Source: Alphaproteobacteria bacterium (GTDB taxonomy: Bacteria; Pseudomonadota; Alphaproteobacteria; UBA7887). From it: a stretch of DNA of 64,000 bases. Shown piece by piece: positions 6,745 to 26,944 of the stretch; position 1 is the stretch's first letter, and every line of letters begins with the position of its first letter. The stretch spans positions 2,338,831 through 2,402,830 of the forward strand of contig OZ243958.1 of the NCBI GenBank assembly GCA_965214495.1, read 5' to 3'. Made by a program: the position numbers and the translations under genes. Below the pieces are notes generated by a model, which worked only from the letters and a program-made list of their open reading frames with translations, searched no databases and was not told where the DNA came from.

Positions 6745-7797
6745 TCACGACCCGCAACCGCCCTGGGCTTGCAGCCGTTCGCCGATGACGCCCATTACCC
6801 GCACCGTTTCAAGGCGGTCTTCGGCCGCGGCGACCGGAGGCAGGCCGCTGGCGCTGCGCTCGACGAACCCTGCGATGGGCCGGTCATGGGTCTTGCGGAA
6901 GCGGCCCGCGAGATAGCCGGCGCCGTTGGCGACGGCGCCCGAGGCGATCTGGGCAGCCTCGCCCAAAGCGGAAAGGCCGATCCCCGCGGGAGAACGGTTC
7001 GCCCGCTTGTAGTTCACCAGCACCTTGCTCTGCATGTCAATCTTCAGCACGCCGTCCGCGCCCCACAACTCCACCATGTAGGCGGAATGCCTGCTTGTAT
7101 AGGTCAGCACGACGCTGCAGGCTGCGCGCTCGCCCGCCAGTTCCAGGTGGTAGTCGTCGAAAGGCGACCAGGGGTATTGGGACAGGACCTTCCGGCCCCG
7201 GACCCGCACCTCCCGGATGGGGCCGACGAACGACCGGGCCAGATACACTACATGAGGGCCGGTCTCGCCTATCGACCCGCCGGGCAGCCGATGGGCGAAG
7301 TGGTCCGGGTCCGTCATCCACAGGGCGACGGGGGTGGAATAGAAGACCCGCATCCCCGTGAAGTCGCCGATGTCGCCGCGCGCGATCCGCCGGCGAGCCT
7401 CGACAACCGATGGGTGGCACAGGTCCGTATGGGCCACTTCCACCCGGCCCCGGGATGCCCGCTGGGCCTCGACGATCCTCTCGCACTCCTCCGCATTTAC
7501 GGCCAGAGGCTTCTCGATCAGGACCTGCGCATCCGCCTGCAAGGCCGCTACCGCCAGACCGGCGTGAGCGCCGGGCGGCGTGCAAATATCGACGAAGTCG
7601 GGACGCTCCCTCTCCAGCATCTGCCGCGCGTTGGCATAAGCCGCTGGAACTCCGAATTGCCGGCTCACCGCCTCGGCGCGGGAGCGGTCGATATCGCAGA
7701 CGGCGACGACCCTCACCTTGCGGCACAGCCGGCGCCAAGCCGGGAGGTGTTTATCGGTCGATATGAACCCGGCGCCTATGATGGCCGCTCTATACAT
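6745..7797 (-). CDS. Gfo/Idh/MocA family NAD(P)-dependent oxidoreductase (sugar dehydrogenase-like)
   Basis: N-terminal Rossmann MYRAAIIGAGFIS...HLPAW, then the EKP motif (VLIEKPLA) and C-terminal alpha/beta domain. Typical of sugar-nucleotide dehydrogenases in polysaccharide loci. Confidence 0.85.
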   Translation of the reverse strand: MYRAAIIGAGFISTDKHLPAWRRLCRKVRVVAVCDIDRSRAEAVSRQFGVPAAYANARQMLERERPDFVDICTPPGAHAGLAVAALQADAQVLIEKPLAVNAEECERIVEAQRASRGRVEVAHTDLCHPSVVEARRRIARGDIGDFTGMRVFYSTPVALWMTDPDHFAHRLPGGSIGETGPHVVYLARSFVGPIREVRVRGRKVLSQYPWSPFDDYHLELAGERAACSVVLTYTSRHSAYMVELWGADGVLKIDMQSKVLVNYKRANRSPAGIGLSALGEAAQIASGAVANGAGYLAGRFRKTHDRPIAGFVERSASGLPPVAAAEDRLETVRVMGVIGERLQAQGGCGS

Positions 7798-7872
7798 CCG
7801 CCGGCATCCCCGGCCCGCCCGGATAGAGCAGGCGGCTACGCAGACGCCACAGCTTGTTCCGCATGAGTGCGG

Positions 7873-8886
7873 TCACACGCCGTCCGCGCCCGCCGGGCCA
7901 TTCCGCCGGAACGGAAGAAGGAAGAAGCCGGTTCCCCAGCTCAGGTGCATGGTTGCGAGGACCGCCGGGAGGAGGAGCGCGGCGGGCTCGCGGCGGTGGA
8001 TGCCGACCGTCAGGGATCCGATCGTCAGGACGAAGAGCCAGGCAAGCGGCAGCGCCGCCGCCGCCTCCCAGGGGGCCCCGGCCGGAGCCAGGAGCGCCGA
8101 GACCGCCAGACCCGACACCAACAGCGGGGCGGCGAGATGCCGGAGCCGCAGCGACGCGGGGTGCTGCCGCAGCACCGACCTCTTCATCCGTCCGTAGTTG
8201 AAATATTGCCTGGCCAAGGCGCGCAGCGTGCCGCGGGGCTGGTATTCGACCGCGAGCTCGGGATCGAACCACACCGTCTCCCCGCGCCGCCGCAGCCGGT
8301 AGTTGATTTCGTAGTCCTCGTTGCCAGACAGGGCGACGTTGTAACTGCCCGCCGCCTCCAACGCTTCGCGTCGATAGACGCCAAGGTAGACGGTGTCGAC
8401 CGGCCCCGCGGGGCCGCCGAGCCGATAACGCGCGTCGCCTGCCCCGAGCGGCGTGGTCATCGCGACCGCCACCGCCCGCTCGAAGAACGTGGTCCCGACC
8501 GACCGTTGCCGGCCGCCCACATTCGCGGCCTCCGTTCCGTGAAGCGTCTCGACGGCGCGGCGCAGATATCCGGGCGGGAAAAACGAATGGGCGTCGCAAC
8601 GCGCGATCACACGCCCCTTTGCGATCCGCAGCGCTGCAACGATGCCGGGGATGTGCAACCTGTCGGGGTTGGGAATCAGCTTCACCGACGGGTAGAGCCG
8701 TCGAACGATCTCGGCGGTCGCGGGCGTGTCGGAGCCGTCGGCGACAACGATCTCCACCGGGCCCGCATAGTCCTGGGACAGCGCCGCATCGAGAGCCTTC
8801 GCGATGGTCGCTTCGGCGTTGCGGGCCGGTATGATAACCGACACTAGGGGGAGGCGAGTCGCGGCGGCTGCAACAGGCTGCTTCAT
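7873..8886 (-). CDS. family 2 glycosyltransferase with C-terminal membrane anchor
   Basis: LVSVIIPARNAEATIAKALDAALSQ...EIVVADGSDTPAT... (GT-A fold with a DGS-type motif) and hydrophobic helices at the C-terminus. Start set at the MKQ Met. The ORF track extends it to 8991. Confidence 0.85.
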   Translation of the reverse strand: MKQPVAAAATRLPLVSVIIPARNAEATIAKALDAALSQDYAGPVEIVVADGSDTPATAEIVRRLYPSVKLIPNPDRLHIPGIVAALRIAKGRVIARCDAHSFFPPGYLRRAVETLHGTEAANVGGRQRSVGTTFFERAVAVAMTTPLGAGDARYRLGGPAGPVDTVYLGVYRREALEAAGSYNVALSGNEDYEINYRLRRRGETVWFDPELAVEYQPRGTLRALARQYFNYGRMKRSVLRQHPASLRLRHLAAPLLVSGLAVSALLAPAGAPWEAAAALPLAWLFVLTIGSLTVGIHRREPAALLLPAVLATMHLSWGTGFFLLPFRRNGPAGADGV

Positions 8887-9595
8887 GCGATGATTTTGGA
8901 CATACCCTCTCGACTTGTCACGTCGTCTCGCTTCATACGGGGCGCGCTCCGAAAAGTCATTCGCCGGAGCACACTGCGCTGTTCGCGCCATGTTCTCGAT
9001 CGGCGGGTTCCTTCACCCCTTCCGGAGGGAGAACATTCACGGTCTCCACCGCGACCGTCAAACGAGACGGGCCGGCCGGCGTCTAGAGGCCCGGACGCCG
9101 CTTTGCGAAGACGGCGCCGACGGCGAACAGGAGTTCGCGCACTGGCGGTGGCGATACGCTCGCCGCCGCCCAATATCCTGCATACTAAGGCAAGACCGCC
9201 GATCCTTGGGGGTGGGCGTCGCGTGAAACTTATGCGGGCCGACCGCATGATCGTAACTGAGAGCGCCGGGTCGATACCAACACGGCGCCGACAACAACGG
9301 TAACCGCGAGGCCGCGCAGGATGACAGGGGCTCGGGCTCTCCCGCAGGCCGTCGGTGTTGGGCTTGAGGGCAACGCCGAGCGCTGCGACGGTCCTGCCCA
9401 AGGCGTTACGCCGCCGGCCTGCGCGACTTTTGTGATCGTCCCGGTCCCGGCCTTGCGCCCGCCGTTGCTGCGCAGCGCCGTCTTGACTATGCTGCATGGT
9501 GCGCCGGCTTCCTCGGCGATGCAGGCGAAGAACTTCGCCGTTTCCCTGAGAAAGCAGGAGCCGCTGAAGCCAGGCCCTGCATGCAGGAAATACCG

Positions 9596-9814: not shown

Positions 9815-12800
9815 GTGATCCTGTTCCGACATACGGCCTCGCTGGTGCGCCGCACCGAATCGCTTCAGGCCGCGCTGACCGCTGTCGCGTTCTGGACGCT
9901 GGCGGCGATAGCTCTGGCCGGCCTGCGGGATCTGCATCTTTGGGGGATGCCGCAGGTCGTGGGCGTCACCGCACGGGTGACCATGGCATGCGTAGCCGTT
10001 CTGGCGGGCCTGGCGGGAATCCGATGTCTGGCGGACCGGCCGAAGTCCGGCTTGCGCGCCTCGGTGCTGGGCGCAATAGGCGGAATGCCCGGCATGTTGT
10101 TGATCGGCGCGGTAGCCTCCTATCTGGCGATCGGCGTTGCCGTGATGGACGACGCGGACTGGACGCCGGACATGGCTGCGACAGTGCGGTATGCAGTCCT
10201 CTGTCTCGGTGTGCTCGTCGCCGCTGCGGTTGGCGGCCGCGCCATGCTGGAGCGGGTCGGGGCCGACCGGTTGTTGCGGGGCGTGCTTGTCGTCCTGATT
10301 GGGTGTTGCGCCCTCATTCTCGCTTCGCCGGTGCTGCGCGACCTCGGCGTCCTGGCGCCCTACAGAATCCCGTTCCGCCTGACCGGCGCTTTCACTAACC
10401 CCAACGACGCCGGCCTGGTCGCCTGCATGACGGCGGCTCTCGCCGCGGCGTTGCTGACCAATGGCGGGCCGCGCGGGCTCGGCTGGCTGGGCCTGGCCGC
10501 AGGCGTCGCCGCAGCCCTGGGGACGGCGTCCCGAACCGCTCTGGTCGTGCTCGGCGCGCTGGCGGTCCTGTTCCTGTTGCTCAACCTCCGCAGCAGACCG
10601 AGGGTTCTGGTTGCGACAGGCGTGGTATTGGCCGGGATCGCAGGATTTGTCGGCCTTGTGGGTTTCTCCGGCGGTCTTTCCGAATGGTCGAGGTTGCGGT
10701 CCGGCGCCACGCAAGAGGGAAGCCTGCTCTGCAATCCTTCGCCAACCGACAGGCGGGACTGCGCCGTCCTGCTGGCGGTGAGGGACACGCTGGCGGGGGA
10801 CATCGCCCTGAACTGGAGCCGCGCCCTGCCCGTCGAACGCTGGCAGGGCGTGACGACGGCCGGCCCGGAGGGGCGCGTTACCGAACTGCGTCTTGCGGGA
10901 CTGGGGTTGAACGGCCGCATTCCCCCGGAACTCGGCCGCCTGGACCGCCTGGAGTCGCTGTCCCTTCAGCGAAACCGGCTCACCGGGGGCATTCCGCCCG
11001 AACTGGGCGATCTGGCGAGCCTGCATCATCTGAATCTGGGCTTCAACGCCTTGACCGGAGCCGTCCCGCCGGAGCTGGCGAAGCCCAGGGACCTCTGGCG
11101 GCTACGGCTGAACCACAACCGCCTGACCGGGCCGCTCCCGGCCGCGCTCGGCGATCTCGGCCTGTCCGTCCTGCGCCTCCGGGGCAACGATTTCGACTCC
11201 ATTCCCCCCGGACTCGCCGCCGCCGACAGCGATTGGGCCGATGCGCAGCCTTGCCTGCCGCCGGCGCCGATGAACCGGGCATTGCTGGACGACTGCACAG
11301 CGCTGCTGGCGGCGAAGGAAGCGCTGGCCGGCGACGTCCCGCTCAACTGGCGCGCCGAGCTTCCCGTCGGCAAGTGGCAGGGCGTGACGGCGGGCGGTCC
11401 GGAGGGAGCCGTGACCGGGCTGGACCTCGGCAACAGGGGGCTGAACGGACGCATTCCCCCGGAACTCGGCAGGCTGAAGCGCCTCAGGACGCTGAACCTG
11501 GCCCGCAACCGGCTCACCGGCCCGATTCCGCCGGAGCTGGGACAGCTGACCGACCTGCGCGCATTGGCTCTGGACCGGAACGCCCTGACCGGCGCCGTCC
11601 CGGCGGAACTGGAACAACTCCCCGGACTCGCATCCCTGTGGTTGCGGGAGAACCGCTTCACCGGCCCCGTGCCGTCGGCGTTGTTCGACGTCCCCGAACA
11701 CGATCTCGGCCATTTCCTGTACTGCCTGCCGCCGCCGGCGCCCGGCCTGCCGCTATTCGACGACTGCGCGCTGCTGCTCGCGGTGAAAGAGACGCTGGCC
11801 GGCGACGCCCCGCTAAACTGGCGCGCGGCGCTTCCCGTAGGTTTGTGGCAAGGCGTGACCCTGGGCGGTCCGCAGGGGCGTGTGGCCGGGTTGGGCCTGC
11901 GCCGGAAGGGGCTGGACGGGCGCATTCCGCCGCAACTCGGCAAGCTGGAGGACCTCGAGTGGTTGGACCTGGCCGACAATCGGCTCACCGGCCCGGTTCC
12001 GCCGCAACTCGGCAAGCTGGAGGGCCTCAAGTGGTTGGATCTGGCCGACAATCGGCTCACCGGCCCGGTTCCGCCGGAGTGGGAGACTCTCATCCGGCTC
12101 GACGGCCTGCTGTTGGGAGGAAACAGTCTGGCCGGCCCCGTTCCGCCGCCGCTGCTCGATATCCCCGAACACGATCTCGGCCATTTGCTGTTCTGCTTTC
12201 CGCCGTTGCTGGCCGGCTCCGCCCTGCTTGAAGACTGCGAACGGCTGCTGGCGGCTAAAGGCGCACTGGCCGGCGATGCGCGGCTCAACTGGCGCCGTGC
12301 GCTGCCGATAGGCGAATGGCAGGGCGTGACTACAGGCGGCCCGCAAGGCCGGGTCGTCGCGCTGGAACTGCCACGAATGCGGCTGAACGGGCATATTCCC
12401 GCGGCGCTGGGAGGTCTCGCAGGTTTGCGAGCCCTGGAGCTTGACGCCAATGCGCTGACCGGCGCCATTCCGCCCGAGCTCGGGAAACTGGCCGATCTGG
12501 AAGCGCTCGGGCTTGCCGTCAACGCCCTGACCGGCCCGGTCCCTCCGGAACTGGGAAAGCTGCCCCACCTCAGGGAACTCCGGCTGGGCGGCAACCGCCT
12601 GACAGGCTCCCTGCCCCCGGGCCTGCGGGCGGCAGCAGTCGGGGGAGCGTCCTGCCCCGCCGCGCCTGCCGACAATCCCGCCCTGCGCGCCGACTGCGCG
12701 GTCCTGCTGGCGGCGAGGGACATCCTCGCCGGCGATGAGCGGCTCAACTGGAGCGAGCATGTCCCCATCGATTCCTGGCAGGGCGTTACGCTCGGCGGCT

Positions 12801-15800
12801 CGCCGAAGCGGGTGACGCGGCTCGAACTGTCCGGGTTGGATCTGAGCGGGCGCATCCCTTCGGAGTTGGGGCGGCTGAGCCGGCTCGTGATGTTGAACCT
12901 GAGCCGCAACCGGCTCACCGGCGGCATCCCGCCGGCATTGGGCGGACTGGACAAGCTCGAATCGCTTTTTCTCATGCGCAACTGGCTCACCGGCCCGGTG
13001 CCTCCCGAACTGGGGGCGTTGTCCGCTCTGGAGCGCCTGGTTCTCTCCTTCAACGCCTTGAGCGGCTCGATTCCGCCGGAACTGGGGAAGCTGCCGCATC
13101 TCAGGGAGTTGTGGCTGAAGCACAACCGCCTGACCGGCCCCGTGCCGCCGGAACTTGAAGGGCTGGACAATCTGGTCGTGCTGCGTCTCTCCGGCAACGA
13201 CCTGGACCGCCCCTACCCGCGGCGTCTTTTCAGGATCGCCGACCACGACCTCTTTCGCGACGGTCTGCGCCGCGGCCAGCCGCGAGGCGATGCGGGGGCG
13301 GCGGAGACGGCGGGCCGCCGGGAACCGGAGAGCGGCCCGCTTTGTCGTCCGGGTTCCGGAGGCGCCTCCGGCCTGGATGCCGACTGCGGCCTCCTGCTTG
13401 CGAACAGGGACATGCTGGCCGGCGGCGCGCCGCTCAACTGGAGCGAGCAGGTCCCCATCGACTTCTGGCGGGGCGTCACTGTCGGCGGCTCGCCGAAGCG
13501 CGTGACCGCCCTGGAATTGCCGCACGCGGGACTGGACGGGCGCCTGTTCGCGGCGCTCGGCGAATTGAACGGCCTCGTCGCCCTGGACCTGAGCGATAAC
13601 CGGCTCACCGGCCCCGCGCCGCCGGAACTGGAAAGGCTGGACAAGCTGGCCTTCCTGCGCCTCGCCGGCAACAATCTGGACCGGCCCTTCCCGCCGGCGC
13701 TCCGCAGGATTGCCGACCATGACCTGGACATGCCGGATTTCTGCCGGCCGCAGGCGATCGGTCCGGGCCTGCTCGCCGACTGCGCCCTCTTGTTGTCGGC
13801 AAGGGACACGCTCGCTGGCGATGCGCCGCTCAACTGGCGCCGCGATGCGCCGGTGGACGACTGGCAGGGGGTCGCCGTGGACCGTTCGCGCGGCCGGGTG
13901 GCGGCGCTGGACCTGACGCAGATGGGGTTGAACGGGCGCATTCCCGCGGAGCTGGGGCGGCTTGCCGGGCTCGTTTCGCTGCGCCTCAGCCGCAACCGGC
14001 TCGCCGGCGGCATCCCGCCCGAGCTCGGCAAGCTCGCCGGCCTGCGCGAGCTGGCCCTGGACGGCAACCTCCTGGCCGGCCCCGCGCCGCCGGAACTCGG
14101 CAAGCTGTCGAAGCTCATCGACCTGCGGCTGAACGGCAACCCCTTGACGGGCCCCACATCGGACCGCGGCCCGGACCTGCTCTGCCGGTCGTCGCTCGAA
14201 GGGCGCCTGCATGACGATTGCGCCCTGCTGCTGGAGATCCGGGACGAGCTGGCCGGCGATGTCGAACTGAACTGGAGCGAGGCGGTCCCGATCGACTATT
14301 GGCGGGGCGTTGCGATCGGCCTTGCCGCGGCCGCCGGCAAGGCCGGGGAAGGGACGCGCGTCATCGCCCTGGACCTGTCGCATATGGGGCTGAACGGGCG
14401 GATTCCGGCAAGGCTTGCGGCTCTGGACGCCCTTGCCGTCCTGCGTCTCGGCGATAACCGGCTTGCGGGGTCCATCCCGCCGGAACTGGGCGTCCTGGCC
14501 GGGCTGCGGACGCTGACCCTGGAGAACAACGCGCTGACAGGCAAGATCCCGCCGGAACTGGGCGCGTTGAAGGCGCTCGTTTCGCTGCGCCTCGGCGGTA
14601 ACGAACTCGCCGGCCGCACGCGGCAATTCGCCACCCTGGCCAACCTGCGCGTGCTCGCGCTGGAAAACAACCTGCTGACGGGCAATATCCATCCGCGGCT
14701 TGGCGGCCTTGAGCATCTGGAAGAACTGCTGCTGGAGAACAATCGCCTGCACGGAAAGATCCCCAGGGAACTCCACCGGTTGTCCCGCCTCGCGGTCCTC
14801 CGCCTGGGCGGCAACGCCCTTGCAGGCTGCATCGGGCGCGGCGCGGGTGCGGCGCGGGTGCGGCGCAACGACCTCGCTTCCGCCGACCTGCTCTGCGAAT
14901 CGCCGCCCTGGTCCAAGCCGGGCCTGTTCGACGATGGCGCGAGCCTGATGCGCCTGCGCGACATCCTTGCCGGCAATGCGGTGCTGGACTGGAGCTACGA
15001 GCGGCCCGTTGCGTCCTGGGAGGGCGTCACCATCGGAAACAGCGGCCGCGTCGCCGCACTGGACCTGCAGGACAGGAACCTGACCGGGCGGATCCCCGCG
15101 GAATTGGGCGAACTGCGCCATCTCCGGCGGCTGAGGCTCGACGGCAACCGTCTCACCGGCCCCATCCCCCCCGAACTGGGGAAACTGACACGGCTGGCCA
15201 TGCTGTCGCTGGAGGGCAACCGCCTGACAGGCGCCATCCCGCCGGAGGTCGCCAATCTGCCGAATCTCAGGCAATTATGGTTGGCCGACAACCGGCTCAC
15301 CGGTTCCATCCCGTTCGAATGGGCCCGTGTCCGGGGTGTCTCCCTGGCCGTCGCCGGCAACGACCTGGACAGCTGCATGGCGTGGGAACTGCGCAGCCTG
15401 CGCAGCAGCGATATCGATCACGGCACCGTCTGCACTTTCTTTATGAATCGCAGACCGTTCCTTTGGAGGCTCGGTTTTGAGAAGGCCATGGAGGCGCCCG
15501 TCTTCGGCCATGGCTTCTGGGCGCTGAAATATCTGGAAGGCGCTCCCCTCACCCATAGCGGCTTGCTGCCGGATCCTCACAATCTGTATATAAACTTGCT
15601 GGGAGAGGCCGGTATCGTCCCTCTGCTACTGTTTCTGTCCGCCATCGTCTTGCTTCTGCGCACACAATGGGTCACGCCGAAGTCGCTTGCCCGGGATGCG
15701 GCAGTGGCTTGGGTCATCGTCATCGTCCTGTATTGCATGACCTTCGCGCATCTGTTCGGCAACAAAGCATTCATGCTTATGGCCGGGTTGAGCGTCGCGA

Positions 15801-15847
15801 TAGGGGCGGTGCGGAATGCCGGAGACCGACGCCCTGAGAAAGCGTGA
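9815..15847 (+). CDS. giant O-antigen ligase/polymerase-family (Wzy_C/WaaL-like) membrane protein with a ~1550-aa periplasmic insertion of nine plant-type LRR modules
   Basis: The N-terminal ~300 aa are polytopic and carry the first Wzy_C half (...FTNPNDAGLVACMTAALAAALL...GTASRTALVVLGALAVLFLLL). The C-terminal ~160 aa carry the second half (RPFLWRLGFEKAMEAPVFGHGFWALKYLEGAPLTHSGLLPDPHNLYINLLGEAGIVPLLLFL, i.e. the R...FGxG...HNxYLxxLxExGixGlllfl signature) plus further TM helices. Between them lie nine modules of D-C-x-x-L-L-x-x-[KR]-[DE]-x-L-A-G-D-x-x-L-N-W...W-[QR]-G-V-T...GRV caps followed by 24-residue LxxLxxLxLxxNxLTGxIPPELGx repeats. TTG/ATG start uncertain. Confidence 0.8.
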   Translation: MILFRHTASLVRRTESLQAALTAVAFWTLAAIALAGLRDLHLWGMPQVVGVTARVTMACVAVLAGLAGIRCLADRPKSGLRASVLGAIGGMPGMLLIGAVASYLAIGVAVMDDADWTPDMAATVRYAVLCLGVLVAAAVGGRAMLERVGADRLLRGVLVVLIGCCALILASPVLRDLGVLAPYRIPFRLTGAFTNPNDAGLVACMTAALAAALLTNGGPRGLGWLGLAAGVAAALGTASRTALVVLGALAVLFLLLNLRSRPRVLVATGVVLAGIAGFVGLVGFSGGLSEWSRLRSGATQEGSLLCNPSPTDRRDCAVLLAVRDTLAGDIALNWSRALPVERWQGVTTAGPEGRVTELRLAGLGLNGRIPPELGRLDRLESLSLQRNRLTGGIPPELGDLASLHHLNLGFNALTGAVPPELAKPRDLWRLRLNHNRLTGPLPAALGDLGLSVLRLRGNDFDSIPPGLAAADSDWADAQPCLPPAPMNRALLDDCTALLAAKEALAGDVPLNWRAELPVGKWQGVTAGGPEGAVTGLDLGNRGLNGRIPPELGRLKRLRTLNLARNRLTGPIPPELGQLTDLRALALDRNALTGAVPAELEQLPGLASLWLRENRFTGPVPSALFDVPEHDLGHFLYCLPPPAPGLPLFDDCALLLAVKETLAGDAPLNWRAALPVGLWQGVTLGGPQGRVAGLGLRRKGLDGRIPPQLGKLEDLEWLDLADNRLTGPVPPQLGKLEGLKWLDLADNRLTGPVPPEWETLIRLDGLLLGGNSLAGPVPPPLLDIPEHDLGHLLFCFPPLLAGSALLEDCERLLAAKGALAGDARLNWRRALPIGEWQGVTTGGPQGRVVALELPRMRLNGHIPAALGGLAGLRALELDANALTGAIPPELGKLADLEALGLAVNALTGPVPPELGKLPHLRELRLGGNRLTGSLPPGLRAAAVGGASCPAAPADNPALRADCAVLLAARDILAGDERLNWSEHVPIDSWQGVTLGGSPKRVTRLELSGLDLSGRIPSELGRLSRLVMLNLSRNRLTGGIPPALGGLDKLESLFLMRNWLTGPVPPELGALSALERLVLSFNALSGSIPPELGKLPHLRELWLKHNRLTGPVPPELEGLDNLVVLRLSGNDLDRPYPRRLFRIADHDLFRDGLRRGQPRGDAGAAETAGRREPESGPLCRPGSGGASGLDADCGLLLANRDMLAGGAPLNWSEQVPIDFWRGVTVGGSPKRVTALELPHAGLDGRLFAALGELNGLVALDLSDNRLTGPAPPELERLDKLAFLRLAGNNLDRPFPPALRRIADHDLDMPDFCRPQAIGPGLLADCALLLSARDTLAGDAPLNWRRDAPVDDWQGVAVDRSRGRVAALDLTQMGLNGRIPAELGRLAGLVSLRLSRNRLAGGIPPELGKLAGLRELALDGNLLAGPAPPELGKLSKLIDLRLNGNPLTGPTSDRGPDLLCRSSLEGRLHDDCALLLEIRDELAGDVELNWSEAVPIDYWRGVAIGLAAAAGKAGEGTRVIALDLSHMGLNGRIPARLAALDALAVLRLGDNRLAGSIPPELGVLAGLRTLTLENNALTGKIPPELGALKALVSLRLGGNELAGRTRQFATLANLRVLALENNLLTGNIHPRLGGLEHLEELLLENNRLHGKIPRELHRLSRLAVLRLGGNALAGCIGRGAGAARVRRNDLASADLLCESPPWSKPGLFDDGASLMRLRDILAGNAVLDWSYERPVASWEGVTIGNSGRVAALDLQDRNLTGRIPAELGELRHLRRLRLDGNRLTGPIPPELGKLTRLAMLSLEGNRLTGAIPPEVANLPNLRQLWLADNRLTGSIPFEWARVRGVSLAVAGNDLDSCMAWELRSLRSSDIDHGTVCTFFMNRRPFLWRLGFEKAMEAPVFGHGFWALKYLEGAPLTHSGLLPDPHNLYINLLGEAGIVPLLLFLSAIVLLLRTQWVTPKSLARDAAVAWVIVIVLYCMTFAHLFGNKAFMLMAGLSVAIGAVRNAGDRRPEKA
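10757..15470 (+). repeat. intragenic array of nine tandem LRR modules (~400-700 bp each, diverged at DNA level, with near-identical 72-bp sub-repeats e.g. 11946-12089)
   Basis: Periodic protein motifs and repeated DNA strings, e.g. cggctcaccggcccggttccgccg recurring. Mirror ORFs on the opposite strand are by-products. Confidence 0.8.
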
Positions 15848-15850: not shown

Positions 15851-17101
15851 TTGACCGGGAACAAGCTCCATGTTGGCTTCGCGCTGACCAACCTGAACGG
15901 CGGCGGCGCGGAGCGCGTCACACTCGACCTTGCGGCGGCACTCATCGCGCGCGGACACCGGGCAGACCTGGTCATCCCAAGCCTCGCGGGAGACTACCGG
16001 GCCGCGATTCCCCGCGGCGCGCGGCTGTATCGGGGGCGGTTTCCTCACACCGACAGGACGTTCCTGCGGGAGGTTCGCCGGGCGGGTGTCGAAGTGGAAG
16101 CGATGACCGTCAACCCATTCGGAGTCGCGCGGAGTTGGCTGGTCCTCGCCTGGAAACACCTTGGCATACGGGTGCAGCGCAAGCGTTCCCACTATGCTTC
16201 GGTCTATGTTTTGAACCGTTACCTCCGCGAAGCGTGTCCCGATGTGCTGGTATCGGGGTCGCGGGGCGCCAACGCCGCCGCGGTCTGCGCCACGGAGTTG
16301 ACGCGCCGGGCGGTTCCCGTGGTGGTCACGGTGCATAACAACATTGCCGCCGCTTATGAACCAGAATGGCTGGCCGCCGCCCGGAGTCTCTATCCGCTGG
16401 CCGACGCGGTGGTGGCGGTGTCCAAGGGCGCGGCGGAGTCTGTGCGACGGTCTGTGGGCGTGGACGCCGGGAGTATTCACACTATCTACAACCCCATCCC
16501 CGCTGACGGCATATGGCGCCTGGCGCAGGAGGAAGTCACACACCCCTGGTTTGCGGGCGGCGAGCCGCCGGTGATTCTGAGCGTCGGGCGTGAGGCGCCC
16601 CAGAAGGACTACCCCACCCTGGTGGAGGCGTTTGTGATAGCGAGACGCAAGGCGGCCGCACGGCTGGTTATCCTCGGCAAGCTCTCGGCACCCTACCGGG
16701 AAAAGCTCAAGTCCTTGGCGCGGGGCCATGGCGCGGAGGAAGACCTCGGTTTCATGGACTTCGACGAGAACCCGTTCCGCTACATGCGGCGGGCGGCGCT
16801 CCTTGCGCTCTCCTCGCGCTGGGAGGGCCTGCCGACGGTGATCCTGGAGGCGCTGGCCTGCGGCACGCCGGTGGTCAGCACCGACACGCCCTACGGCCCG
16901 CGCGAGATCCTTGGGCAGTGGGGCGAGTTGCCGCCGGTGGGCGACGCACCGGCGCTGGCGCGGGCGCTGGTCGCGACGCTGCGCGGCGAGCACCCACCGG
17001 AGGAAGCCTTGCGCGCGCGCGCCGCCGAGTTCTCCCCCGAGAAGGCCGCCGACGCCTACGAAGCACTATTCCGAAAGCTGGCGAGGGGGCGAGCACGGTG
17101 A
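15851..17101 (+). CDS. family 4 (GT-B, RfaB-like) glycosyltransferase, tandem paralogue 1
   Basis: TTG start 3 nt after the giant gene's stop. Carries the GT4 EX7E-type C-terminal domain (RWEGLPTVILEALACGTPVVSTD). ~416 aa. Confidence 0.9.
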   Translation: MTGNKLHVGFALTNLNGGGAERVTLDLAAALIARGHRADLVIPSLAGDYRAAIPRGARLYRGRFPHTDRTFLREVRRAGVEVEAMTVNPFGVARSWLVLAWKHLGIRVQRKRSHYASVYVLNRYLREACPDVLVSGSRGANAAAVCATELTRRAVPVVVTVHNNIAAAYEPEWLAAARSLYPLADAVVAVSKGAAESVRRSVGVDAGSIHTIYNPIPADGIWRLAQEEVTHPWFAGGEPPVILSVGREAPQKDYPTLVEAFVIARRKAAARLVILGKLSAPYREKLKSLARGHGAEEDLGFMDFDENPFRYMRRAALLALSSRWEGLPTVILEALACGTPVVSTDTPYGPREILGQWGELPPVGDAPALARALVATLRGEHPPEEALRARAAEFSPEKAADAYEALFRKLARGRAR

Positions 17102-18357
17102 GATCGGATAGACTCCAAGTCTGCATCACGGTAACCAGTCTGGCCGGCGGCGGAGTAGAGCGCAACATTCTCCGTCTGGCACGGTCACTCATCGAACGAG
17201 GACATCGGGTGGACTTGGTGATCCCCCGGTTCGCAGGAGACTACCTGGCGGCGATACCCGGTGAAATGCGTATCTGGCGGGCGCGGATGCCCGGCACCGA
17301 TAGGGCGTTCTTGCGAAAGGTCCGGCGGGCAGGAATCGAGGTGGAGGCGATGACCGTCAACCCCGTCGGCGCTGCGTGTGCCTGGCTGGCTCTCGCCCGG
17401 AAGCATCCCGGGATACCGGTCATACGCGGCAGCGGCATGCGCTCCATCTATCCCTACGCCCATGTTCTGGCTCGCTACCTTCGCGAGGAACGGCCCGACG
17501 TGCTGGTGTCGGCGCATATGGGCCCCAACGCCGTTGCGGTCTGCGCCGCCGAACTGACGGACCGGGCCGTTTCGACGGTGATCACTGTGCGCAATAACGT
17601 CGCCGCCGGCTATGCGCCGCATTGGTTGGCAGCGGCCCGGACGCTCTATCCGCTTGCCGACGCCGTGGTGTCGGTGTCCAGGGGTGTGGCGGAGTCTGTG
17701 CGGCGGTTCGTGGGCATGGATGCCGACCGTGTCCACACCATCTACCACCCCATCCCTGCAGACAGCATATGGCGCCTGGCGCAGGAGGAAGTCACGCACC
17801 CCTGGTTCGCGGGCGGCGAGCCGCCGGTGATTCTGAGTGTCGGGCGCGAGGCGTTGCAGAAAGATCGCCCCACGTTGGTGAAGGCGTTCGGTTTGGCGCG
17901 GCGCGAGGTGAATGCGCGGCTGGTGATCCTCGGCAAGCTGTCGGCCGCCTACCGGGAAAGGCTGCGGTCCCTGGCGCGGAGCCATGGCGCAGCCGAGGAC
18001 CTGGGCTTCGTGGACTTCGACGAGAACCCGTTCCGCTACATGCGGCGGGCGGCGCTCTTTGCGCTGTCCTCGCGCTGGGAGGGCCTGCCGACGGTGGTCA
18101 TCGAGGCGCTGGCCTGCGGCACGCCGGTGGTCAGCACCGATGCGCCCTACGGCCCGCGCGAGATCCTTGGGGGGTGGGGCGGGTTGCCGCCGGTGGGCGA
18201 CGCGCCGGCGCTGGCGCGGGCGCTGGTTGCGACGCTGCGCGGCGAGCACCCGCCGGAAGAAGCCTTGCGTGCGCGCGCCGCCGACTTTTCCGATGACAAG
18301 GCCACTGACGCCTACGAAGCGCTGTTCGAGAAGCTGGTGAGAGAGCGCGCGCGGTGA
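17098..18357 (+). CDS. family 4 glycosyltransferase, tandem paralogue 2
   Basis: GTG start overlaps the paralogue-1 stop (GTGA). The N-terminus VRSDRLQVCITVTSLAGGGVERNILRL parallels paralogues 1 and 3. Confidence 0.9.
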   Translation: MRSDRLQVCITVTSLAGGGVERNILRLARSLIERGHRVDLVIPRFAGDYLAAIPGEMRIWRARMPGTDRAFLRKVRRAGIEVEAMTVNPVGAACAWLALARKHPGIPVIRGSGMRSIYPYAHVLARYLREERPDVLVSAHMGPNAVAVCAAELTDRAVSTVITVRNNVAAGYAPHWLAAARTLYPLADAVVSVSRGVAESVRRFVGMDADRVHTIYHPIPADSIWRLAQEEVTHPWFAGGEPPVILSVGREALQKDRPTLVKAFGLARREVNARLVILGKLSAAYRERLRSLARSHGAAEDLGFVDFDENPFRYMRRAALFALSSRWEGLPTVVIEALACGTPVVSTDAPYGPREILGGWGGLPPVGDAPALARALVATLRGEHPPEEALRARAADFSDDKATDAYEALFEKLVRERAR

Positions 18358-19649
18358 GGCAGGACAAGCTTCAAGTCAGCTTCCTGCTGACCGGCATGAA
18401 CGGTGGCGGGGCGGAGCGCAGTATTCTCCGATTGGCCCGGTCGCTTATTGAGCGCGGGCACCGGGCAGATCTGGTGATCCCCAAATTCGCGGGAGACTAC
18501 CGGGCTGCGGTCCCCAGCGGAATGCGCGTCTGGCGGGCGCGGCTTCCCGGCACCGACAGGAATCTGCTGCGGGAGGTGCAGCGGGCGGGAACCGAGGTGA
18601 AGGCGATGACTGTCAACCCCATCGGTGTCGCCCGCACTTGGCTGGCTCTCGCCGGGAAAGGCTTCAACCTGCCCGTTCGAAGTCATCACCGCATCGCTGC
18701 GTATGCATACATGATCGCCACGTACGTTCGTGAGGCGCGTCCTGATGTGCTGGTGTCAGCGCTGCCGGGCGCCGACACCGCCGCTGTCTGCGCCGCGGCG
18801 TTGACGGACCGGGCCGTTCCTGTGGTGGTCACGGTGCGCATCAACATCGTCGCCGACTATACGCCGGAATGGCTGGCCGCTTGCCGAACCCTCTATCCGC
18901 GGGCCGATGCGGTGGTGACGATATCCCGAGGCGTGGGCGAGTCCGTGCGGCAATCGATGGGGGTGGATGCCGGGCGCGTTCGCACCATCTACAACGGCGT
19001 TCCTGTCGACAGCATACGACAGCTGGCGCAGGATGAAGTCACGCACCCGTGGTTCGCAGACGGCGAGCCGCCGGTGATCCTGAGCGTCGGGCGCGAGGCG
19101 TTGCAGAAAGATCACCCCACGTTGGTGAAGGCGTTCGGTTTGGCGCGGCGCGAGGTGAACGCGCGGCTGGTGATCCTCGGCAAGCTGTCGGCCGCCTACC
19201 GGGAAAGGCTCAAGTCCCTGGCGCGGAGCCATGGCGCGGAGGAGGACCTGGGCTTCGTGGACTTCGACGAGAACCCGTTCCGCTACATGCGGCGTGCGGC
19301 GCTCTTTGCGCTCTCCTCGCGCTGGGAGGGCCTGTCGATGGTGGTCATCGAGGCGCTGGCCTGCGGCACGCCGGTGGTCAGCACCGATGCGCCCTACGGC
19401 CCGCGCGAGATCCTGGGCGGGTGGGGCGACCTGCCGCCGGTGGGCGACGCGCCGGCGCTGGCGCGGGCGCTCGTCGCGACGCTGCGCGGCGAGCACCCGC
19501 CGGAGGAAGCCTTGCGCACGCGCGCCGCCGACTTTTCCGATGACAAGGCCGCCAACGCCTATGTCGCGCTGTTCCGGGAGCTGGTGCAGGAGCGCGCGGT
19601 GAAGCCGGATACACTTCCTGTCATTCCGGGAGAACCGGCGCAGCCATGA
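18354..19649 (+). CDS. family 4 glycosyltransferase, tandem paralogue 3
   Basis: GTG start overlaps the paralogue-2 stop. The C-terminal half is almost identical at DNA level to paralogue 2. Confidence 0.9.
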   Translation: MRQDKLQVSFLLTGMNGGGAERSILRLARSLIERGHRADLVIPKFAGDYRAAVPSGMRVWRARLPGTDRNLLREVQRAGTEVKAMTVNPIGVARTWLALAGKGFNLPVRSHHRIAAYAYMIATYVREARPDVLVSALPGADTAAVCAAALTDRAVPVVVTVRINIVADYTPEWLAACRTLYPRADAVVTISRGVGESVRQSMGVDAGRVRTIYNGVPVDSIRQLAQDEVTHPWFADGEPPVILSVGREALQKDHPTLVKAFGLARREVNARLVILGKLSAAYRERLKSLARSHGAEEDLGFVDFDENPFRYMRRAALFALSSRWEGLSMVVIEALACGTPVVSTDAPYGPREILGGWGDLPPVGDAPALARALVATLRGEHPPEEALRTRAADFSDDKAANAYVALFRELVQERAVKPDTLPVIPGEPAQP

Positions 19650-22412: not shown

Positions 22413-22689
22413 GCATGATCGCTTCTTTCACCGTTAGTCCGAGGGGGCGGGAAAGGCTGCCGATGAGAAAGGTGAAGAGGGTTGCCGGGCGTTCGACCCT
22501 AACGAGGCTTACCGCGGAACCCGAACCGCCGGCGCTCCCGGGGTTTCGACGAGGAGCCGTTCGTCCTTTCACACCACGATACCGGAGGGTTTGGTATCAA
22601 GGGGGGTTTCGCCGCTGCCCGCGTGCAGAGGCGTGGAGAGGGCGACGGCTGCCGGGCTCTCCGGCGGAGAGGCCCCAGCGGGAATTTGG

Positions 22690-22990: not shown

Positions 22991-23233
22991 GAGGCAGGGC
23001 CCGTCTGTCCGCCACCGCCGCAAGGCGGGACGGGGCATTTGGCCCAGTCTTCGAGCGGTGCTCACCCCCTCTTTCGACACGAAAAGACATGGCTGCGCCT
23101 GTCGAACAGTTGTCGGCCTTTCCCGCACGAACCGAATACGCCCCGCGCAAGCCAAAACCTGGTATGTTCAGACCTTCCCTAACGACCGACGGCAGGTGGC
23201 GACGGCAATGACACGGCCCATGAAGAGCGCGGC

Positions 23234-26079: not shown

Positions 26080-26156
<77 letters not shown>

Positions 26157-26424: not shown

Positions 26425-26943
<519 letters not shown>

Positions 26944-26944
26944 C

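What the first reader, a model, noticed from the sequence alone, without database searches (positions are those of the whole stretch)
9815..15847. Wzy/WaaL-family polysaccharide polymerase/ligase split by a ~1550-aa periplasmic array of nine plant-type LRR modules
Both conserved halves of the O-antigen ligase/polymerase (Wzy_C) domain are present in one 2010-aa ORF. The first half is NPNDAGL...TASRTALVV in the N-terminal polytopic region. The second half is RPFLWRLGFEKAMEAPVFGHGF...PHNLYINLLGEAGIVPLLLFL at the C-terminus. In WaaL/Wzy proteins these motifs flank the catalytic periplasmic loop. Here that loop is replaced by ~1550 residues made of nine modules. Each module has a Cys-containing cap (DCxxLLxxKxxLAGDxxLNW....WQGVT) reminiscent of the plant LRRNT_2 cap (xxALLxxKxxLxDPxxxLxxWxxxxxCxWxGVxC). 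The cap is followed by 4-8 repeats of the 24-residue plant-specific LRR consensus LxxLxxLxLxxNxLTGxIPPELGx, and then a Cys/Pro-rich linker. Such PS-LRRs are rare in bacteria. An LRR solenoid of this size (several tens of nm if extended) spliced into the active-site loop of a Wzy-type enzyme is not an architecture I recognise. It could be a built-in periplasmic scaffold or ruler, a receptor for a partner or host factor, or an envelope-anchored adhesin sharing a membrane module. The topological prediction places the whole array in the periplasm, where the paired Cys could form disulfides.
Basis: partly seen in the sequence, partly recalled or inferred. Interest (0 to 1): 0.9.

Follow-up and report, generated by a model that had tools for sequence, protein, structure and literature searches.

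The report
Glycan ligase carrying nine LRR modules
A membrane enzyme of the O-antigen ligase/polymerase family carries nine plant-receptor-like leucine-rich-repeat modules inside its outward-facing catalytic loop; this undescribed design, with its sugar-building gene cassette, recurs almost unchanged in uncultured bacteria labelled as many different phyla, probably sponge symbionts.

Summary

It is not an assembly artefact. Fourteen species-representative genomes carry nine-module orthologues of 1958-2059 aa. Modules match position by position, the array is as conserved as the enzyme core, and eight cysteine pairs are invariant. The putative catalytic His and Arg residues are kept.

The gene sits in a GT4-GT4-GT4-flippase-like cassette shared at 73-89% identity among genomes labelled as several phyla. 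The taxa and record names suggest sponge symbionts, but I could not verify that.

Most likely it is an active periplasmic glycan-transfer enzyme with a built-in, disulfide-stabilised protein-binding scaffold. Whether it acts as polymerase, ligase or protein O-glycosyltransferase is unresolved. I found no paper describing the architecture. Verdict: a new variant of a known kind, of high interest.

The parts
9815..15847 (+). Whole gene: 2010-aa Wzy_C-family membrane enzyme with an inserted LRR array
   Evidence: ORF listing and translation. Pfam LRR families plus Wzy_C. Fourteen orthologues of 1958-2059 aa at 56-72% identity.
9815..10714 (+). N-terminal membrane core, aa 1-300. It has nine hydrophobic helices, the invariant R188 and N197 (NPND motif), and the first half of Wzy_C (aa 226-295, nt 10490-10699).
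   Evidence: Hydropathy. Positive-inside count. Pfam Wzy_C profile positions 2-70. Invariant columns.
10715..11239 (+). LRR module 1 (aa 301-475): Cys306/Cys316 pair, cap helix, 5 LRRs
   Evidence: Cap HMM. LRR HMM. Best hit is module 1 in all ten orthologues compared, at 57-72% identity. It is also module 1 of the two-module paralogues.
11240..11710 (+). LRR module 2 (aa 476-632): Cys480/Cys494, cap, 4 LRRs
   Evidence: The PDB sequence search with this module returns plant LRR receptor kinases, led by GSO1 at E 1e-117.
11711..12181 (+). LRR module 3 (aa 633-789): Cys637/Cys651, cap, 4 LRRs. Two of the LRRs are a 96%-identical 72-nt tandem duplication (11925-12076).
   Evidence: Modules 2 and 3 are each other's closest paralogues, and their orthology is interchangeable between genomes.
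12182..12640 (+). LRR module 4 (aa 790-942): Cys794/Cys808, cap, 4 LRRs
12641..13330 (+). LRR module 5 (aa 943-1172): Cys947/Cys961, cap, 6 LRRs, long charged tail
13331..13729 (+). LRR module 6 (aa 1173-1305): Cys1177/Cys1191, cap, 3 LRRs
13730..14170 (+). LRR module 7 (aa 1306-1452): Cys1310/Cys1323, cap, 4 LRRs. This is the most conserved module, 68-81% identical to orthologues.
14171..14881 (+). LRR module 8 (aa 1453-1689): Cys1457/Cys1469, cap, 7 LRRs
14882..15409 (+). LRR module 9 (aa 1690-1865): cap with a single Cys1694 (the second position is Gly or Ala in all orthologues), 4 LRRs plus a degenerate one. It corresponds to the last module of one group of two-module paralogues.
15410..15847 (+). 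C-terminal core, aa 1866-2010. It holds the periplasmic catalytic segment and the last TM helices (two by hydropathy in the window protein; three helices at the equivalent place in the homologue model). The catalytic segment has R1880-x3-W1884, G1898-x-G1900, H1922-N-x-Y1925 and E1931. It also holds the second half of Wzy_C (aa 1878-1941, nt 15446-15637).
   Evidence: Pfam profile positions 82-149. Residues invariant in 14 orthologues, H1922 in 13 of 14. Hydropathy. Secondary structure of the homologue model.
15851..19649 (+). Three GT4 glycosyltransferase genes (15851-17101, 16918-18357, 18354-19649) directly downstream
   Evidence: Pfam. They are syntenic with the LRR enzyme in about 28 loci at 73-89% aa identity and in L068.
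19646..21019 (+). 457-aa polytopic membrane protein, a candidate Wzx-type flippase
   Evidence: About 10-12 hydrophobic segments. There is no Pfam hit here, but the orthologue in L068 carries a weak Polysacc_synt hit. It is conserved in 29 loci at 72-80% identity.
21288..25234 (+). Further cassette genes: a fourth GT4 (21288-22412) and an AsnB-type amidotransferase (23234-25234) that resembles the XrtA/PEP-CTERM-system amidotransferase but scores below its cut-off
   Evidence: The AsnB gene is shared with 5 loci.
6745..8991 (-). Divergent upstream genes: a GT2 glycosyltransferase (7873-8991) and a GFO/IDH/MocA sugar oxidoreductase (6745-7797)
   Evidence: Pfam. GT2 is shared with 18 loci and GFO with 6 loci.

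Best explanation
The gene encodes an intact, probably active inner-membrane glycan-transfer enzyme. It belongs to the WaaL/Wzy/PglL superfamily (Pfam Wzy_C, GT-C fold).

Proposed pathway:
- The neighbouring GT2 and GT4 enzymes build an oligosaccharide on a lipid carrier, presumably undecaprenyl-diphosphate.
- The adjacent polytopic MOP-like protein flips it to the periplasmic face.
- This enzyme then transfers or polymerises it there.

Between TM9 and the catalytic loop the protein carries nine separate short LRR solenoids with 41 repeats in all. Each is equivalent to a whole plant SERK/BIR-type co-receptor ectodomain, and most are closed by a conserved disulfide. The array stays in the periplasm, tethered to the membrane at both ends and right beside the active site.

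It most likely acts as a fixed-length protein-binding scaffold. It would dock the acceptor or partner envelope proteins. It may also confine the growing glycan, a job done in classical Wzy systems by a separate Wzz-type co-polymerase that is absent from this cassette.

The whole cassette is a horizontally shared island among uncultured bacteria labelled as several phyla, probably sponge symbionts.

Shown here:
- the split domain;
- the WaaL-like fold of the core and the plant-ectodomain-like fold of the modules, on a two-module homologue;
- nine positionally orthologous modules;
- invariant cysteines and putative catalytic residues;
- the conserved cassette.

Inferred:
- periplasmic location;
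- disulfide formation;
- enzymatic activity;
- the lipid carrier;
- the scaffold or ruler role;
- the sponge habitat.
For: Split but complete catalytic domain:
- The excised core gives one Wzy_C match, 2-149/149, E 3.4e-19.
- It aligns over its full length with uninterrupted relatives.

Fold, from an AF2 model of the two-module homologue P0001 (pLDDT 73.8):

Activity is plausible:
- R188, N197, R1880, W1884, G1898, G1900, N1923 and E1931 are invariant, and H1922 is kept in 13 of 14.
- A catalytic His, pyrophosphate-binding Arg residues and a conserved Glu are described for WaaL, PglS and PglL (PMC12800693).

Extracytoplasmic array:
- No hydrophobic segment lies between aa 285 and 1929, so the array and H1922 share one loop.
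- Nine TM helices precede it, with K/R-rich odd loops.
- Sixteen cysteines forming eight pairs are invariant in 14 of 14 orthologues.

Selected, fixed geometry:
- Orthologues measure 1958-2059 aa.
- Module i best-hits module i.
- The array is 65% conserved against 61-63% for the core. Concave surface positions are not hypervariable: 0.50 against 0.54 for convex positions.

Pathway context:
- GT2, four GT4s, a polytopic flippase-like protein and an amidotransferase lie nearby.
- The cassette is syntenic in about 28 loci at 73-89% identity, while housekeeping flanks do not match.
- No Wzz or Wza family turned up among the window ORFs scanned against Pfam. None is listed in L068 or L069 either.
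- In this sample, LRR-bearing members occur only in genomes not labelled Chloroflexi. The 11 Dehalococcoidia-class loci and the one Caldilineaceae locus have none.
Against: - Nothing here separates polymerase, lipid-A-core ligase and protein O-glycosyltransferase activity. No curated NCBIfam model reaches its cut-off, and no solved relative is detectable by sequence.
- The structural evidence comes from a two-module homologue. The model of the window's own excised core was poor (pLDDT 48), and I could not read coordinates to measure geometry.
- Known LRR ligands are mostly proteins or peptides, not glycans. The 'ruler' half of the idea is only an analogy.
- If extended, nine ectodomain-sized modules would span several tens of nm. 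That is more than the usual width of a periplasm, so the array must lie folded or along the membrane (my estimate from known SERK dimensions).
- Wzz, Wza and an initiating phosphoglycosyl transferase could be encoded elsewhere in the genome.
- In some genomes the gene is broken by insertions, so it is dispensable at least sometimes.
Confidence: 0.55

Rival explanations
1. It is a PglL/TfpM/PglS-type protein O-oligosaccharyltransferase. The LRR array would be its built-in substrate-recruiting domain, or itself the acceptor, giving a membrane-anchored glycosylated LRR 'proteoglycan'.
For: - LRRs are protein-binding modules, and the closest structures are protein- or peptide-binding plant co-receptors.
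- O-OTases share the Wzy_C core and use extra periplasmic domains to form the acceptor cleft (PMC12800693).
- Weak NCBIfam hits go to TfpM and to the 'putative O-glycosylation ligase' TIGR03097.
- Many genomes carry two to four paralogues in tandem. This fits one polymerase plus one transferase.
- The Cys-bounded linkers are rich in Pro, Ala and Ser.
Against: - TfpM scores 21.9 bits against a cut-off of 600, and TIGR03097 scores 34.4 against 188.
- Several Cys loops have almost no Ser or Thr. The 1310-1323 loop averages 0.2 and the 947-961 loop 0.6. A general self-glycosylation site in the linkers is therefore not supported.
- No candidate acceptor protein is encoded in the cassette.
Confidence: 0.2
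2. It is a host-facing receptor or adhesin. The Wzy-like core would only anchor a eukaryote-like LRR array that contacts host (sponge) factors, as proposed for other eukaryotic-like proteins of symbionts.
For: - LRR-type eukaryotic-like proteins are enriched and expressed in sponge symbionts, and are thought to help evade phagocytosis (PMC5845141).
- The family is found almost only in MAGs whose taxa and record names point to sponges.
Against: - The array is tethered to the inner membrane at both ends. The LRR-bearing genomes are labelled as Gram-negative lineages, so an outer membrane should lie between the array and the host.
- The putative catalytic residues of the core are invariant. A mere anchor would not need them.
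- Concave LRR surfaces show no excess variability, unlike arms-race receptors.
Confidence: 0.08
3. The core is a pseudo-enzyme, or the insert is neutral baggage. The LRR array would be a tolerated insertion at a permissive loop with no role in glycan assembly.
For: - The same loop position accepts other inserts: a roughly 150-aa non-LRR insert in P0019 and P0022, and many 560-690-aa relatives.
- Some copies are disrupted.
Against: - The array is as conserved as the core.
- Total length stays within about +/-2.5% across 14 species.
- Module-by-module orthology holds.
- Sixteen cysteines are invariant.
Confidence: 0.05
4. It is an assembly or annotation artefact: two genes (an LRR protein and a membrane protein) fused by misassembly of repeats or by a sequencing error.
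For: - Repetitive genes are prone to collapse or expansion.
- The exact protein is not in the public protein index.
Against: - The modules share only 60-80% DNA identity.
- The reading frame is continuous.
- Fourteen independent genomes, most labelled as complete chromosomes, carry the same nine-module, roughly 2000-aa gene with the same flanking core halves.
Confidence: 0.01

Closest known systems
WaaL O-antigen ligase (Cupriavidus metallidurans, PDB 7TPJ/7TPG; CAZy GT121)
   Same: - It has a Pfam Wzy_C domain.
- An extracytoplasmic loop after TM9 carries conserved Arg and His residues.
   Different: - Identity is only 14%, and the match is undetectable by sequence search against the PDB.
- It lies in an EPS/O-antigen-type GT/flippase cassette, not a core-LPS locus.
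- It carries a 1565-aa LRR insert.
- The only bimodular O-ligase noted in the CAZy survey is WadA. That has an appended GT25 domain, not an inserted binding array (PMC10920833).
Wzy O-antigen/EPS polymerases with their Wzz co-polymerases
   Same: - The gene context is that of a Wzx/Wzy-dependent cassette (GTs plus a flippase-like protein) in which this is the only Wzy_C-type protein.
- A periplasmic structure of fixed size next to the enzyme recalls the chain-length regulator.
   Different: - No Wzz/PCP gene was seen in the window or the related loci examined.
- Here the periplasmic structure is part of the same polypeptide and is made of LRRs.
- Polymerase activity is untested.
PglL/PglS/TfpM O-linking oligosaccharyltransferases
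   Same: - The Wzy_C core is shared.
- Accessory periplasmic domains shape acceptor recognition (PMC12800693).
- There is a weak TfpM hit.
   Different: - The score is far below the curated cut-off.
- The accessory domain there is C-terminal and small (about 110 aa). Here it is internal, 1565 aa long and LRR-based.
Plant LRR co-receptor ectodomains (SERK1/BAK1, BIR2/3, SOBIR1) and LRR-RLKs (GSO1, FLS2, ERL)
   Same: - The repeats follow the 24-residue plant-specific consensus.
- A cap helix plus W-x-G-V strand precedes the repeats. Plant N-caps align with it.
- Whole-module superposition gives rmsd about 2 A at 26-34% identity.
   Different: - The protein is bacterial.
- Nine such ectodomains are strung in one chain inside an enzyme loop.
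- The plant CxWxGVxC cysteines are missing and a different upstream Cys pair is used.
- Pfam LRRNT_2 is not significant.
Bacterial plant-type LRR proteins (Xanthomonas XopAC/AvrAC, XopAE, XopL; Leptospira LIC proteins)
   Same: The repeat class is similar: NCBIfam and PDB hits come through the LRR region.
   Different: - All scores are below the curated cut-offs (219 against 450, 196 against 600, 86 against 500).
- Those proteins are secreted effectors or surface proteins without a membrane enzyme core.
Eukaryotic-like repeat proteins (ELPs) of sponge symbionts
   Same: - The LRR domain is of eukaryotic type.
- The genomes' taxa match the sponge consortium.
- ELPs and LPS/O-antigen changes are the two proposed routes to avoid phagocytosis (PMC5845141).
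   Different: - ELPs are thought of as secreted or surface proteins. Here the LRRs are built into the glycan-assembly enzyme itself.
- The sponge origin of this window is not verified.

Membership tests
Wzy_C superfamily (PF04932; WaaL/Wzy/PglL-type GT-C enzymes) | Pfam Wzy_C match above the gathering score | tested here: met
   46.7 bits on the whole protein in two stretches. 69.5 bits and one stretch 2-149/149 after in-silico excision. The cut-off is 31.7.
Wzy_C superfamily (PF04932; WaaL/Wzy/PglL-type GT-C enzymes) | Polytopic membrane protein (about 12 TM helices) with a large extracytoplasmic loop after TM9 that carries the conserved residues | tested here: met
   Nine hydrophobic helices precede the insert, and two by hydropathy (three helices in the homologue model) follow the catalytic segment. 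The positive-inside pattern fits N-in. No dedicated topology predictor was available.
Wzy_C superfamily (PF04932; WaaL/Wzy/PglL-type GT-C enzymes) | Three-dimensional similarity to a solved member | tested here: met
   [not shown]
Wzy_C superfamily (PF04932; WaaL/Wzy/PglL-type GT-C enzymes) | Conserved catalytic His and pyrophosphate-binding Arg residues | tested here: inconclusive
   H1922 (13 of 14), R188 and R1880 are conserved. They lie in the Pfam-aligned motif. Their structural equivalence to the WaaL or PglS catalytic residues was not checked on coordinates.
WaaL sensu stricto (lipid A-core:O-antigen ligase) | Transfers glycan to lipid A-core; usually encoded with core-LPS genes | not testable with these tools
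   The context is a GT/flippase cassette, not a waa locus. No curated ligase model is matched.
Wzy polymerase of a Wzx/Wzy-dependent pathway | Encoded with repeat-unit glycosyltransferases and a Wzx flippase | tested here: met
   One GT2, four GT4s and a 457-aa polytopic protein are present. The orthologue of that protein has a weak Polysacc_synt hit.
Wzy polymerase of a Wzx/Wzy-dependent pathway | Works with a Wzz/PCP chain-length regulator and, for EPS, a Wza-type exporter | tested here: not met
   No such family appeared among the window ORFs scanned or in L068 and L069. These genes could lie elsewhere in the genome.
O-linking oligosaccharyltransferase TfpM/PglL/PglS | Match to a curated model (NF058641 TfpM, cut-off 600 bits) | tested here: not met
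   21.9 bits on the excised core.
TIGR03097 PEP_O_lig_1 (exosortase A-associated putative O-glycosylation ligase) | Score of at least 188.1 bits, and an exosortase/PEP-CTERM context | tested here: not met
   34.4 bits. The AsnB-like and GT4 neighbours resemble XrtA-system genes but score below their cut-offs (539 against 817; 67.6 against 409). No exosortase gene was seen.
Plant-specific (PS) class of leucine-rich repeats | 24-residue unit LxxLxxLxLxxNxL(S/T)GxIPxxLGx | tested here: met
   The consensus LxxLxxLrLxxNrLTGpIPPELGx comes from 33 regex-defined repeats. A repeat HMM finds 41 repeats. The best 40 PDB sequence hits are all plant LRR receptors.
Plant-specific (PS) class of leucine-rich repeats | LRRNT_2 N-terminal cap with the CxWxGVxC cysteine pair | tested here: inconclusive
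   Pfam LRRNT_2 gives E 0.047, 14.4 bits against 20.7, on one of four caps. Plant N-caps align to the W..WxGV region, and whole plant ectodomains superpose. The plant cysteines are absent, replaced by an upstream pair.
Xanthomonas type III LRR effectors XopAC, XopAE, XopL | Curated NCBIfam score (450, 600, 500 bits) | tested here: not met
   219, 196 and 86 bits, all from the repeats only.
Eukaryotic-like proteins of sponge symbionts | Eukaryote-type repeat domain encoded by a sponge-associated bacterium | tested here: inconclusive
   The LRR type is shown. Habitat is only inferred. The related MAGs carry the taxa of sponge consortia, including Entotheonella and Tectimicrobiota. Three relatives sit on records named PANK22-1_SAMN..._METAG. 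No metadata were accessible.

The most novel reading that the evidence does not exclude
The cassette is a horizontally traded 'symbiont coat' system of sponge microbiomes. In this reading the nine-module LRR array is a single-chain functional replacement for the oligomeric Wzz co-polymerase: a periplasmic cage or ruler of fixed size that sets the length or placement of a shared surface glycan. Alternatively it is a sensor that couples a periplasmic protein signal to glycan assembly. Paralogues with 2, 3, 4 or 9-11 modules in the same locus would then specify different products. The system would physically unite the two proposed ways in which sponge symbionts escape phagocytosis, eukaryotic-like repeats and O-antigen remodelling.
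Probability: 0.15. Interest if true: 0.9.

Novelty: new variant of a known kind. Interest (0 to 1): 0.75.

Why it matters
Enzymes of the WaaL/Wzy/PglL superfamily decide what sugar coat a bacterium shows to the world. How they choose acceptors and set chain length is still poorly understood.

Here a large, exactly conserved protein-binding array is spliced next to the active site. It consists of nine plant co-receptor-like LRR ectodomains. This is a natural experiment in how accessory periplasmic domains steer this enzyme class. It is also one of the most elaborate uses of plant-type LRRs in bacteria.

The gene and its cassette are shared at 60-89% identity among genomes labelled as many phyla that appear to live together in sponges. 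That makes the cassette a concrete, clonable candidate for a community-wide surface-glycan trait in animal-microbe symbiosis. Eukaryotic-like repeats and O-antigen changes have so far been discussed as separate mechanisms in that field.

The modules are small, disulfide-stabilised and well predicted. They are therefore good targets for expression, partner fishing and glyco-engineering.

Tried and rejected
- **Direct sequence search of the excised core and of its family profile against PDB sequences.** No relative was found. The link to WaaL came only from fold comparison.
- **AF2 model of the window's own excised core from a 9-sequence alignment.** The pLDDT was 48, too poor to use.
- **afdb50 fold search.** The library was not available.
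- **Profile of the nine caps against the 5.8-billion-protein index.** It returned only four short fragments, because few candidates shared words with the query. This said nothing about where else the cap occurs.
- **Exact look-ups of the window protein and of GT4a.** Neither is on record, so the source sample could not be identified.
- **Attempts to verify a sponge origin.** I searched by accession prefixes, sample names and run ids. The only finding was that a neighbouring accession series belongs to a sponge genome note. I found no direct link. Cluster look-ups gave no protein names.
- **LRRNT_2 membership by Pfam.** Sub-threshold.
- **Self-glycosylation sites in the Cys-bounded linkers.** Ser and Thr are too irregular.
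- **Diversifying selection on the concave LRR surface.** No excess variability appeared by a simple identity measure. I did not run a codon-based test.
- **Misassembly.** Rejected on the divergence of the DNA repeats and on 14 independent orthologues.
- **A second LRR or Wzy gene in the window.** None.

Full report
**1. The observation**

The window has one long open reading frame at 9815-15847 on the + strand. It has a GTG start and encodes 2010 aa. Third-position GC is 0.83, like its neighbours. Relatives begin with MILFRH..., which agrees with the GTG start.

Pfam finds several LRR families (E 1e-81 to 1e-39). It also finds the O-antigen-ligase domain Wzy_C in two stretches, above the gathering score.
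- The N-terminal 300 aa alone match Wzy_C profile positions 2-70.
- The C-terminal 145 aa alone match positions 82-149.
- Joined in silico, the two pieces give a single uninterrupted match, 2-149 of 149, at 69.5 bits and E 3.4e-19.
- This excised core also aligns end to end with relatives of 448-484 aa that have no insert.

So the split domain is real. The insert sits between TM9 and the conserved R-x3-W ... GxG ... HNxY segment. The catalytic loop is not replaced; it follows the insert intact.

**2. The insert**

An HMM built from the nine caps finds nine hits in this ORF and nowhere else in the window. A repeat HMM finds 41 LRRs of 24 residues, distributed 5, 4, 4, 4, 6, 3, 4, 7, 4 over the nine modules. 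The repeat consensus is LxxLxxLrLxxNrLTGpIPPELGx, which is the plant-specific class.

A sequence search of the PDB with a single module returns only plant LRR receptor ectodomains in the first 40 places. The leaders are GSO1 (E 1e-117), FLS2, ERL2, PEPR1 and BRI1. The alignments of GSO1, FLS2, ERL2, TDR, TMK1 and HPCA1 start in the plant N-terminal cap and run onto the W..WxGV region of the module.

Pfam's LRRNT_2 model itself is only sub-threshold on one of four caps tested. The plant CxWxGVxC cysteines are missing. Each of modules 1-8 is instead preceded by a Cys-x9-13-Cys pair.

At the DNA level the modules are only 60-80% identical. The exception is one 72-nt duplication of an LRR in module 3. 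The array is therefore old and is not an assembly artefact.

**3. Structure**

The window protein exceeds the size limit for prediction. I therefore modelled the natural two-module homologue P0001 (779 aa; its membrane core is 66% identical to the window's) with 23 relatives. Mean pLDDT was 73.8, with the core and LRRs mostly at 80-90 and the linkers below 50.

Sequence searches against the PDB with the core or its family profile found nothing. A model of the window's own excised core from nine sequences was too poor to use (pLDDT 48).

**4. Topology**

Hydropathy shows nine helices before the insert, none between aa 285 and 1929, and two clear ones after it. The homologue model shows three helices at the equivalent place.

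Loops on the predicted cytoplasmic side are rich in Lys and Arg. The predicted outer loop between TM3 and TM4 has four acidic and no basic residues.

The array and the conserved His (H1922) therefore lie in the same membrane-free loop. In this enzyme family that loop works on flipped lipid-linked glycans on the outer face of the membrane (PMC12800693; PMC10920833).

Sixteen cysteines forming the eight pairs are invariant in all 14 nine-module orthologues. This fits structural disulfides in an oxidising compartment. The periplasmic placement remains an inference, because no topology predictor or experiment was available.

**5. A family, not a one-off**

A search with the excised core found 58 proteins. 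Many of them combine LRR and Wzy_C domains at 575-780 aa.

A scan of one genome per species found 67 loci. In these loci the nine-module form recurs in at least 14 species.
- The 14 aligned nine-module orthologues measure 1958-2059 aa. Relatives with 8, 10 or 11 modules also exist.
- The orthologues are 56-72% identical to the window protein over about 1900-1985 aligned residues.
- Window modules 1 and 4-9 best-hit the module of the same rank in nine or all ten of the other genomes compared. Modules 2 and 3, a young pair, are interchangeable.
- The array is as conserved (65%) as the core (61-63%). The solvent-exposed concave positions of the repeats are not more variable than the convex ones, 0.50 against 0.54.
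- R188, N197, R1880, W1884, G1898, G1900, N1923 and E1931 are invariant. H1922 is kept in 13 of 14.

A shorter paralogue with two modules (about 780-880 aa) often lies directly beside the long one. Its first module corresponds to window module 1. Its second corresponds to module 9 or to module 3. Some loci hold three or four paralogues with 2, 4 and 9 modules.

An exhaustive HMMER search of 1.84 billion cluster representatives found only 133 clusters at E <= 1e-30. Most are 400-480 aa without an insert, and a few are giants of 1438-2058 aa. Other relatives (P0019, P0022) carry a non-LRR insert of about 150 aa at the same position. The loop is evidently a permissive site for insertions.

**6. 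Genomic context**

The gene is followed by three GT4 glycosyltransferases, a 457-aa polytopic membrane protein, a fourth GT4 and an AsnB-type amidotransferase. A divergent GT2 and a sugar oxidoreductase lie upstream. The orthologue of the 457-aa protein has a weak Polysacc_synt (flippase) hit.

This order is kept in about 28 loci at 73-89% protein identity. The window's housekeeping flanks (ribonucleotide reductase, asd, leuB, leuC) have no match in those loci.

No Wzz- or Wza-type gene appeared among the window ORFs scanned or in the loci with gene tables. The rest of the window is ordinary chromosomal sequence. It contains CobS/CobT and PhaR, which suggest an alphaproteobacterium (my inference). 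The closest cassette is in a MAG labelled Alphaproteobacteria (L002).

**7. Where the family lives**

All 67 loci come from metagenome-assembled genomes. Most are labelled as complete chromosomes. The labels span:
- Alpha- and Gammaproteobacteria
- Vicinamibacterales, Terriglobia and Bryobacterales
- Nitrospirales and Gemmatimonadota
- Candidatus Entotheonella and Tectimicrobiota
- Binatia and Latescibacteria
- Caldilineaceae and Dehalococcoidia
- Spirochaetia, Thermodesulfobacteriota, Planctomycetota and Pedosphaera

That list is the typical consortium of high-microbial-abundance sponges. A Wellcome genome note for the sponge Corticium candelabrum describes such bins, and its chromosomes have accessions in a neighbouring series. 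Three relatives lie on records named PANK22-1_SAMN..._METAG. From memory I take that label to be a 2022 sponge metagenome study. I could not confirm the habitat from any metadata, so the sponge link is a well-motivated inference, not a result.

Core identities of 55-75% between genomes labelled as different phyla, together with the shared cassette, point to horizontal spread.

The 11 Dehalococcoidia-class loci and the one Caldilineaceae locus have no LRR caps. This would fit a role that needs a periplasm, but it may simply reflect descent.

**8. What it most likely does**

The core looks like a working enzyme. It has a complete domain, a WaaL-like fold in the homologue, and invariant His, Arg and Glu residues. 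It is also the only Wzy_C-type protein in a Wzx/Wzy-style cassette.

I therefore take it to transfer or polymerise the lipid-linked oligosaccharide made by the neighbouring enzymes, on the outer face of the inner membrane.

The array has four telling properties.
- It is made of protein-binding modules.
- It is fixed in number, order and length across species.
- It is stabilised by conserved cysteine pairs.
- It is tethered at both ends next to the active site.

The reading that fits best is a built-in periplasmic scaffold. It would dock an acceptor or partner envelope proteins. It may also confine the growing chain, as the separate Wzz co-polymerase does in classical systems.

I cannot tell polymerase from ligase from protein O-glycosyltransferase. 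All curated models are far below their cut-offs.

The O-glycosyltransferase reading is the main rival. It gives protein-binding LRRs an obvious job, and such enzymes use extra periplasmic domains for acceptor recognition. However, the linkers lack a consistent Ser/Thr site, and no acceptor is encoded nearby.

A host-facing adhesin or receptor is unlikely for a loop anchored in the inner membrane at both ends, and the concave surfaces show no excess variability. Neutral baggage is unlikely given the conservation. Misassembly is excluded.

**9. Comparison with what is known, and novelty**

Eight full-text searches found no paper that describes a Wzy_C or O-antigen-ligase enzyme carrying LRRs. 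Four paired LRR terms with O-antigen, Wzy_C, ligase or polymerase terms, one paired them with sponge-symbiosis terms, and three used accession, sample or study names.

The CAZy survey of these enzymes notes only one bimodular ligase, WadA, which has an appended GT25 domain.

In sponge symbiosis, eukaryotic-like repeat proteins and LPS/O-antigen changes are listed as two separate ways of avoiding phagocytosis (PMC5845141). This protein joins the two themes in one polypeptide.

I rate it a new variant of a known kind: a known enzyme core and a known repeat class in an undescribed and strongly conserved combination. Interest is 0.75. Function is unproven and the organisms are uncultured. The cassette is nevertheless small enough to test by heterologous expression.

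Noticed in passing
window 26083-27128 (- strand): Only the 3' end of a 23S rRNA is present (model positions 2045-2912 of 2925, at 26422-27128). It is followed by a 5S rRNA (26213-26327) and tRNA-Met (26083-26156). The asd gene starts right upstream of the fragment. The 23S is therefore truncated or fragmented here.
   Followed up: no
window 45773-46816 (+), 22415-23182 (+), and GC dips at 20-22 kb and 46-48 kb: There is an IS5-type DDE transposase. An ORF between the fourth GT4 and the amidotransferase has a faint IS5 transposase hit. GC falls to 0.60-0.61 in both regions against 0.64-0.70 elsewhere. These are hints that the cassette's edges have been visited by mobile elements.
   Followed up: no
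window 11925-12076: A 72-nt tandem duplication at 96% identity makes two adjacent LRRs of module 3. It is the only young repeat in the array. Modules 2 and 3 are also the only ones whose orthology is not one-to-one between genomes.
   Followed up: partly
L001 (9977-20930), L003 (10001-18939), L069 (10001-14058): In some genomes the long gene is broken. L001 has 1+3+5 caps in three ORFs separated by gaps of about 2.7 kb. L003 has 7+2 caps separated by 2.8 kb. L069 is the closest relative of the window's N-terminal core (88%). It is split into 412 and 933 aa, with three transposase genes next to it and fragmented GT4 genes.
   Followed up: partly
L004, L010, L014, L008, L017/L068: Tandem sets of paralogues with different array lengths lie in one locus. 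L004, for example, has 2, 4 and at least 8 modules. L008 and L068 have 9 plus 2.
   Followed up: partly
P0019, P0022 (also L023, L025, L027): Paralogues of 577-598 aa carry a non-LRR insert of about 150 aa with no Pfam match, at the same loop position as the LRR array. P0022 is on the same contig as the LRR-bearing P0011.
   Followed up: no
Dehalococcoidia-class loci L038, L043, L046-L049, L055, L056, L060, L063, L064 and Caldilineaceae locus L031: Family members in genomes labelled Dehalococcoidia-class or Caldilineaceae have no LRR caps, although several are long (545-906 aa) and must carry other inserts.
   Followed up: no
window 15851-18357: The first two GT4 ORFs overlap by 184 nt as listed (15851-17101 and 16918-18357). 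The real start of the second is probably further downstream.
   Followed up: no
window 54948-58449: CobS/CobT (aerobic cobaltochelatase) and a PhaR-type PHB regulator suggest an alphaproteobacterial host genome. This agrees with the closest cassette, L002, lying in a MAG labelled Alphaproteobacteria.
   Followed up: no
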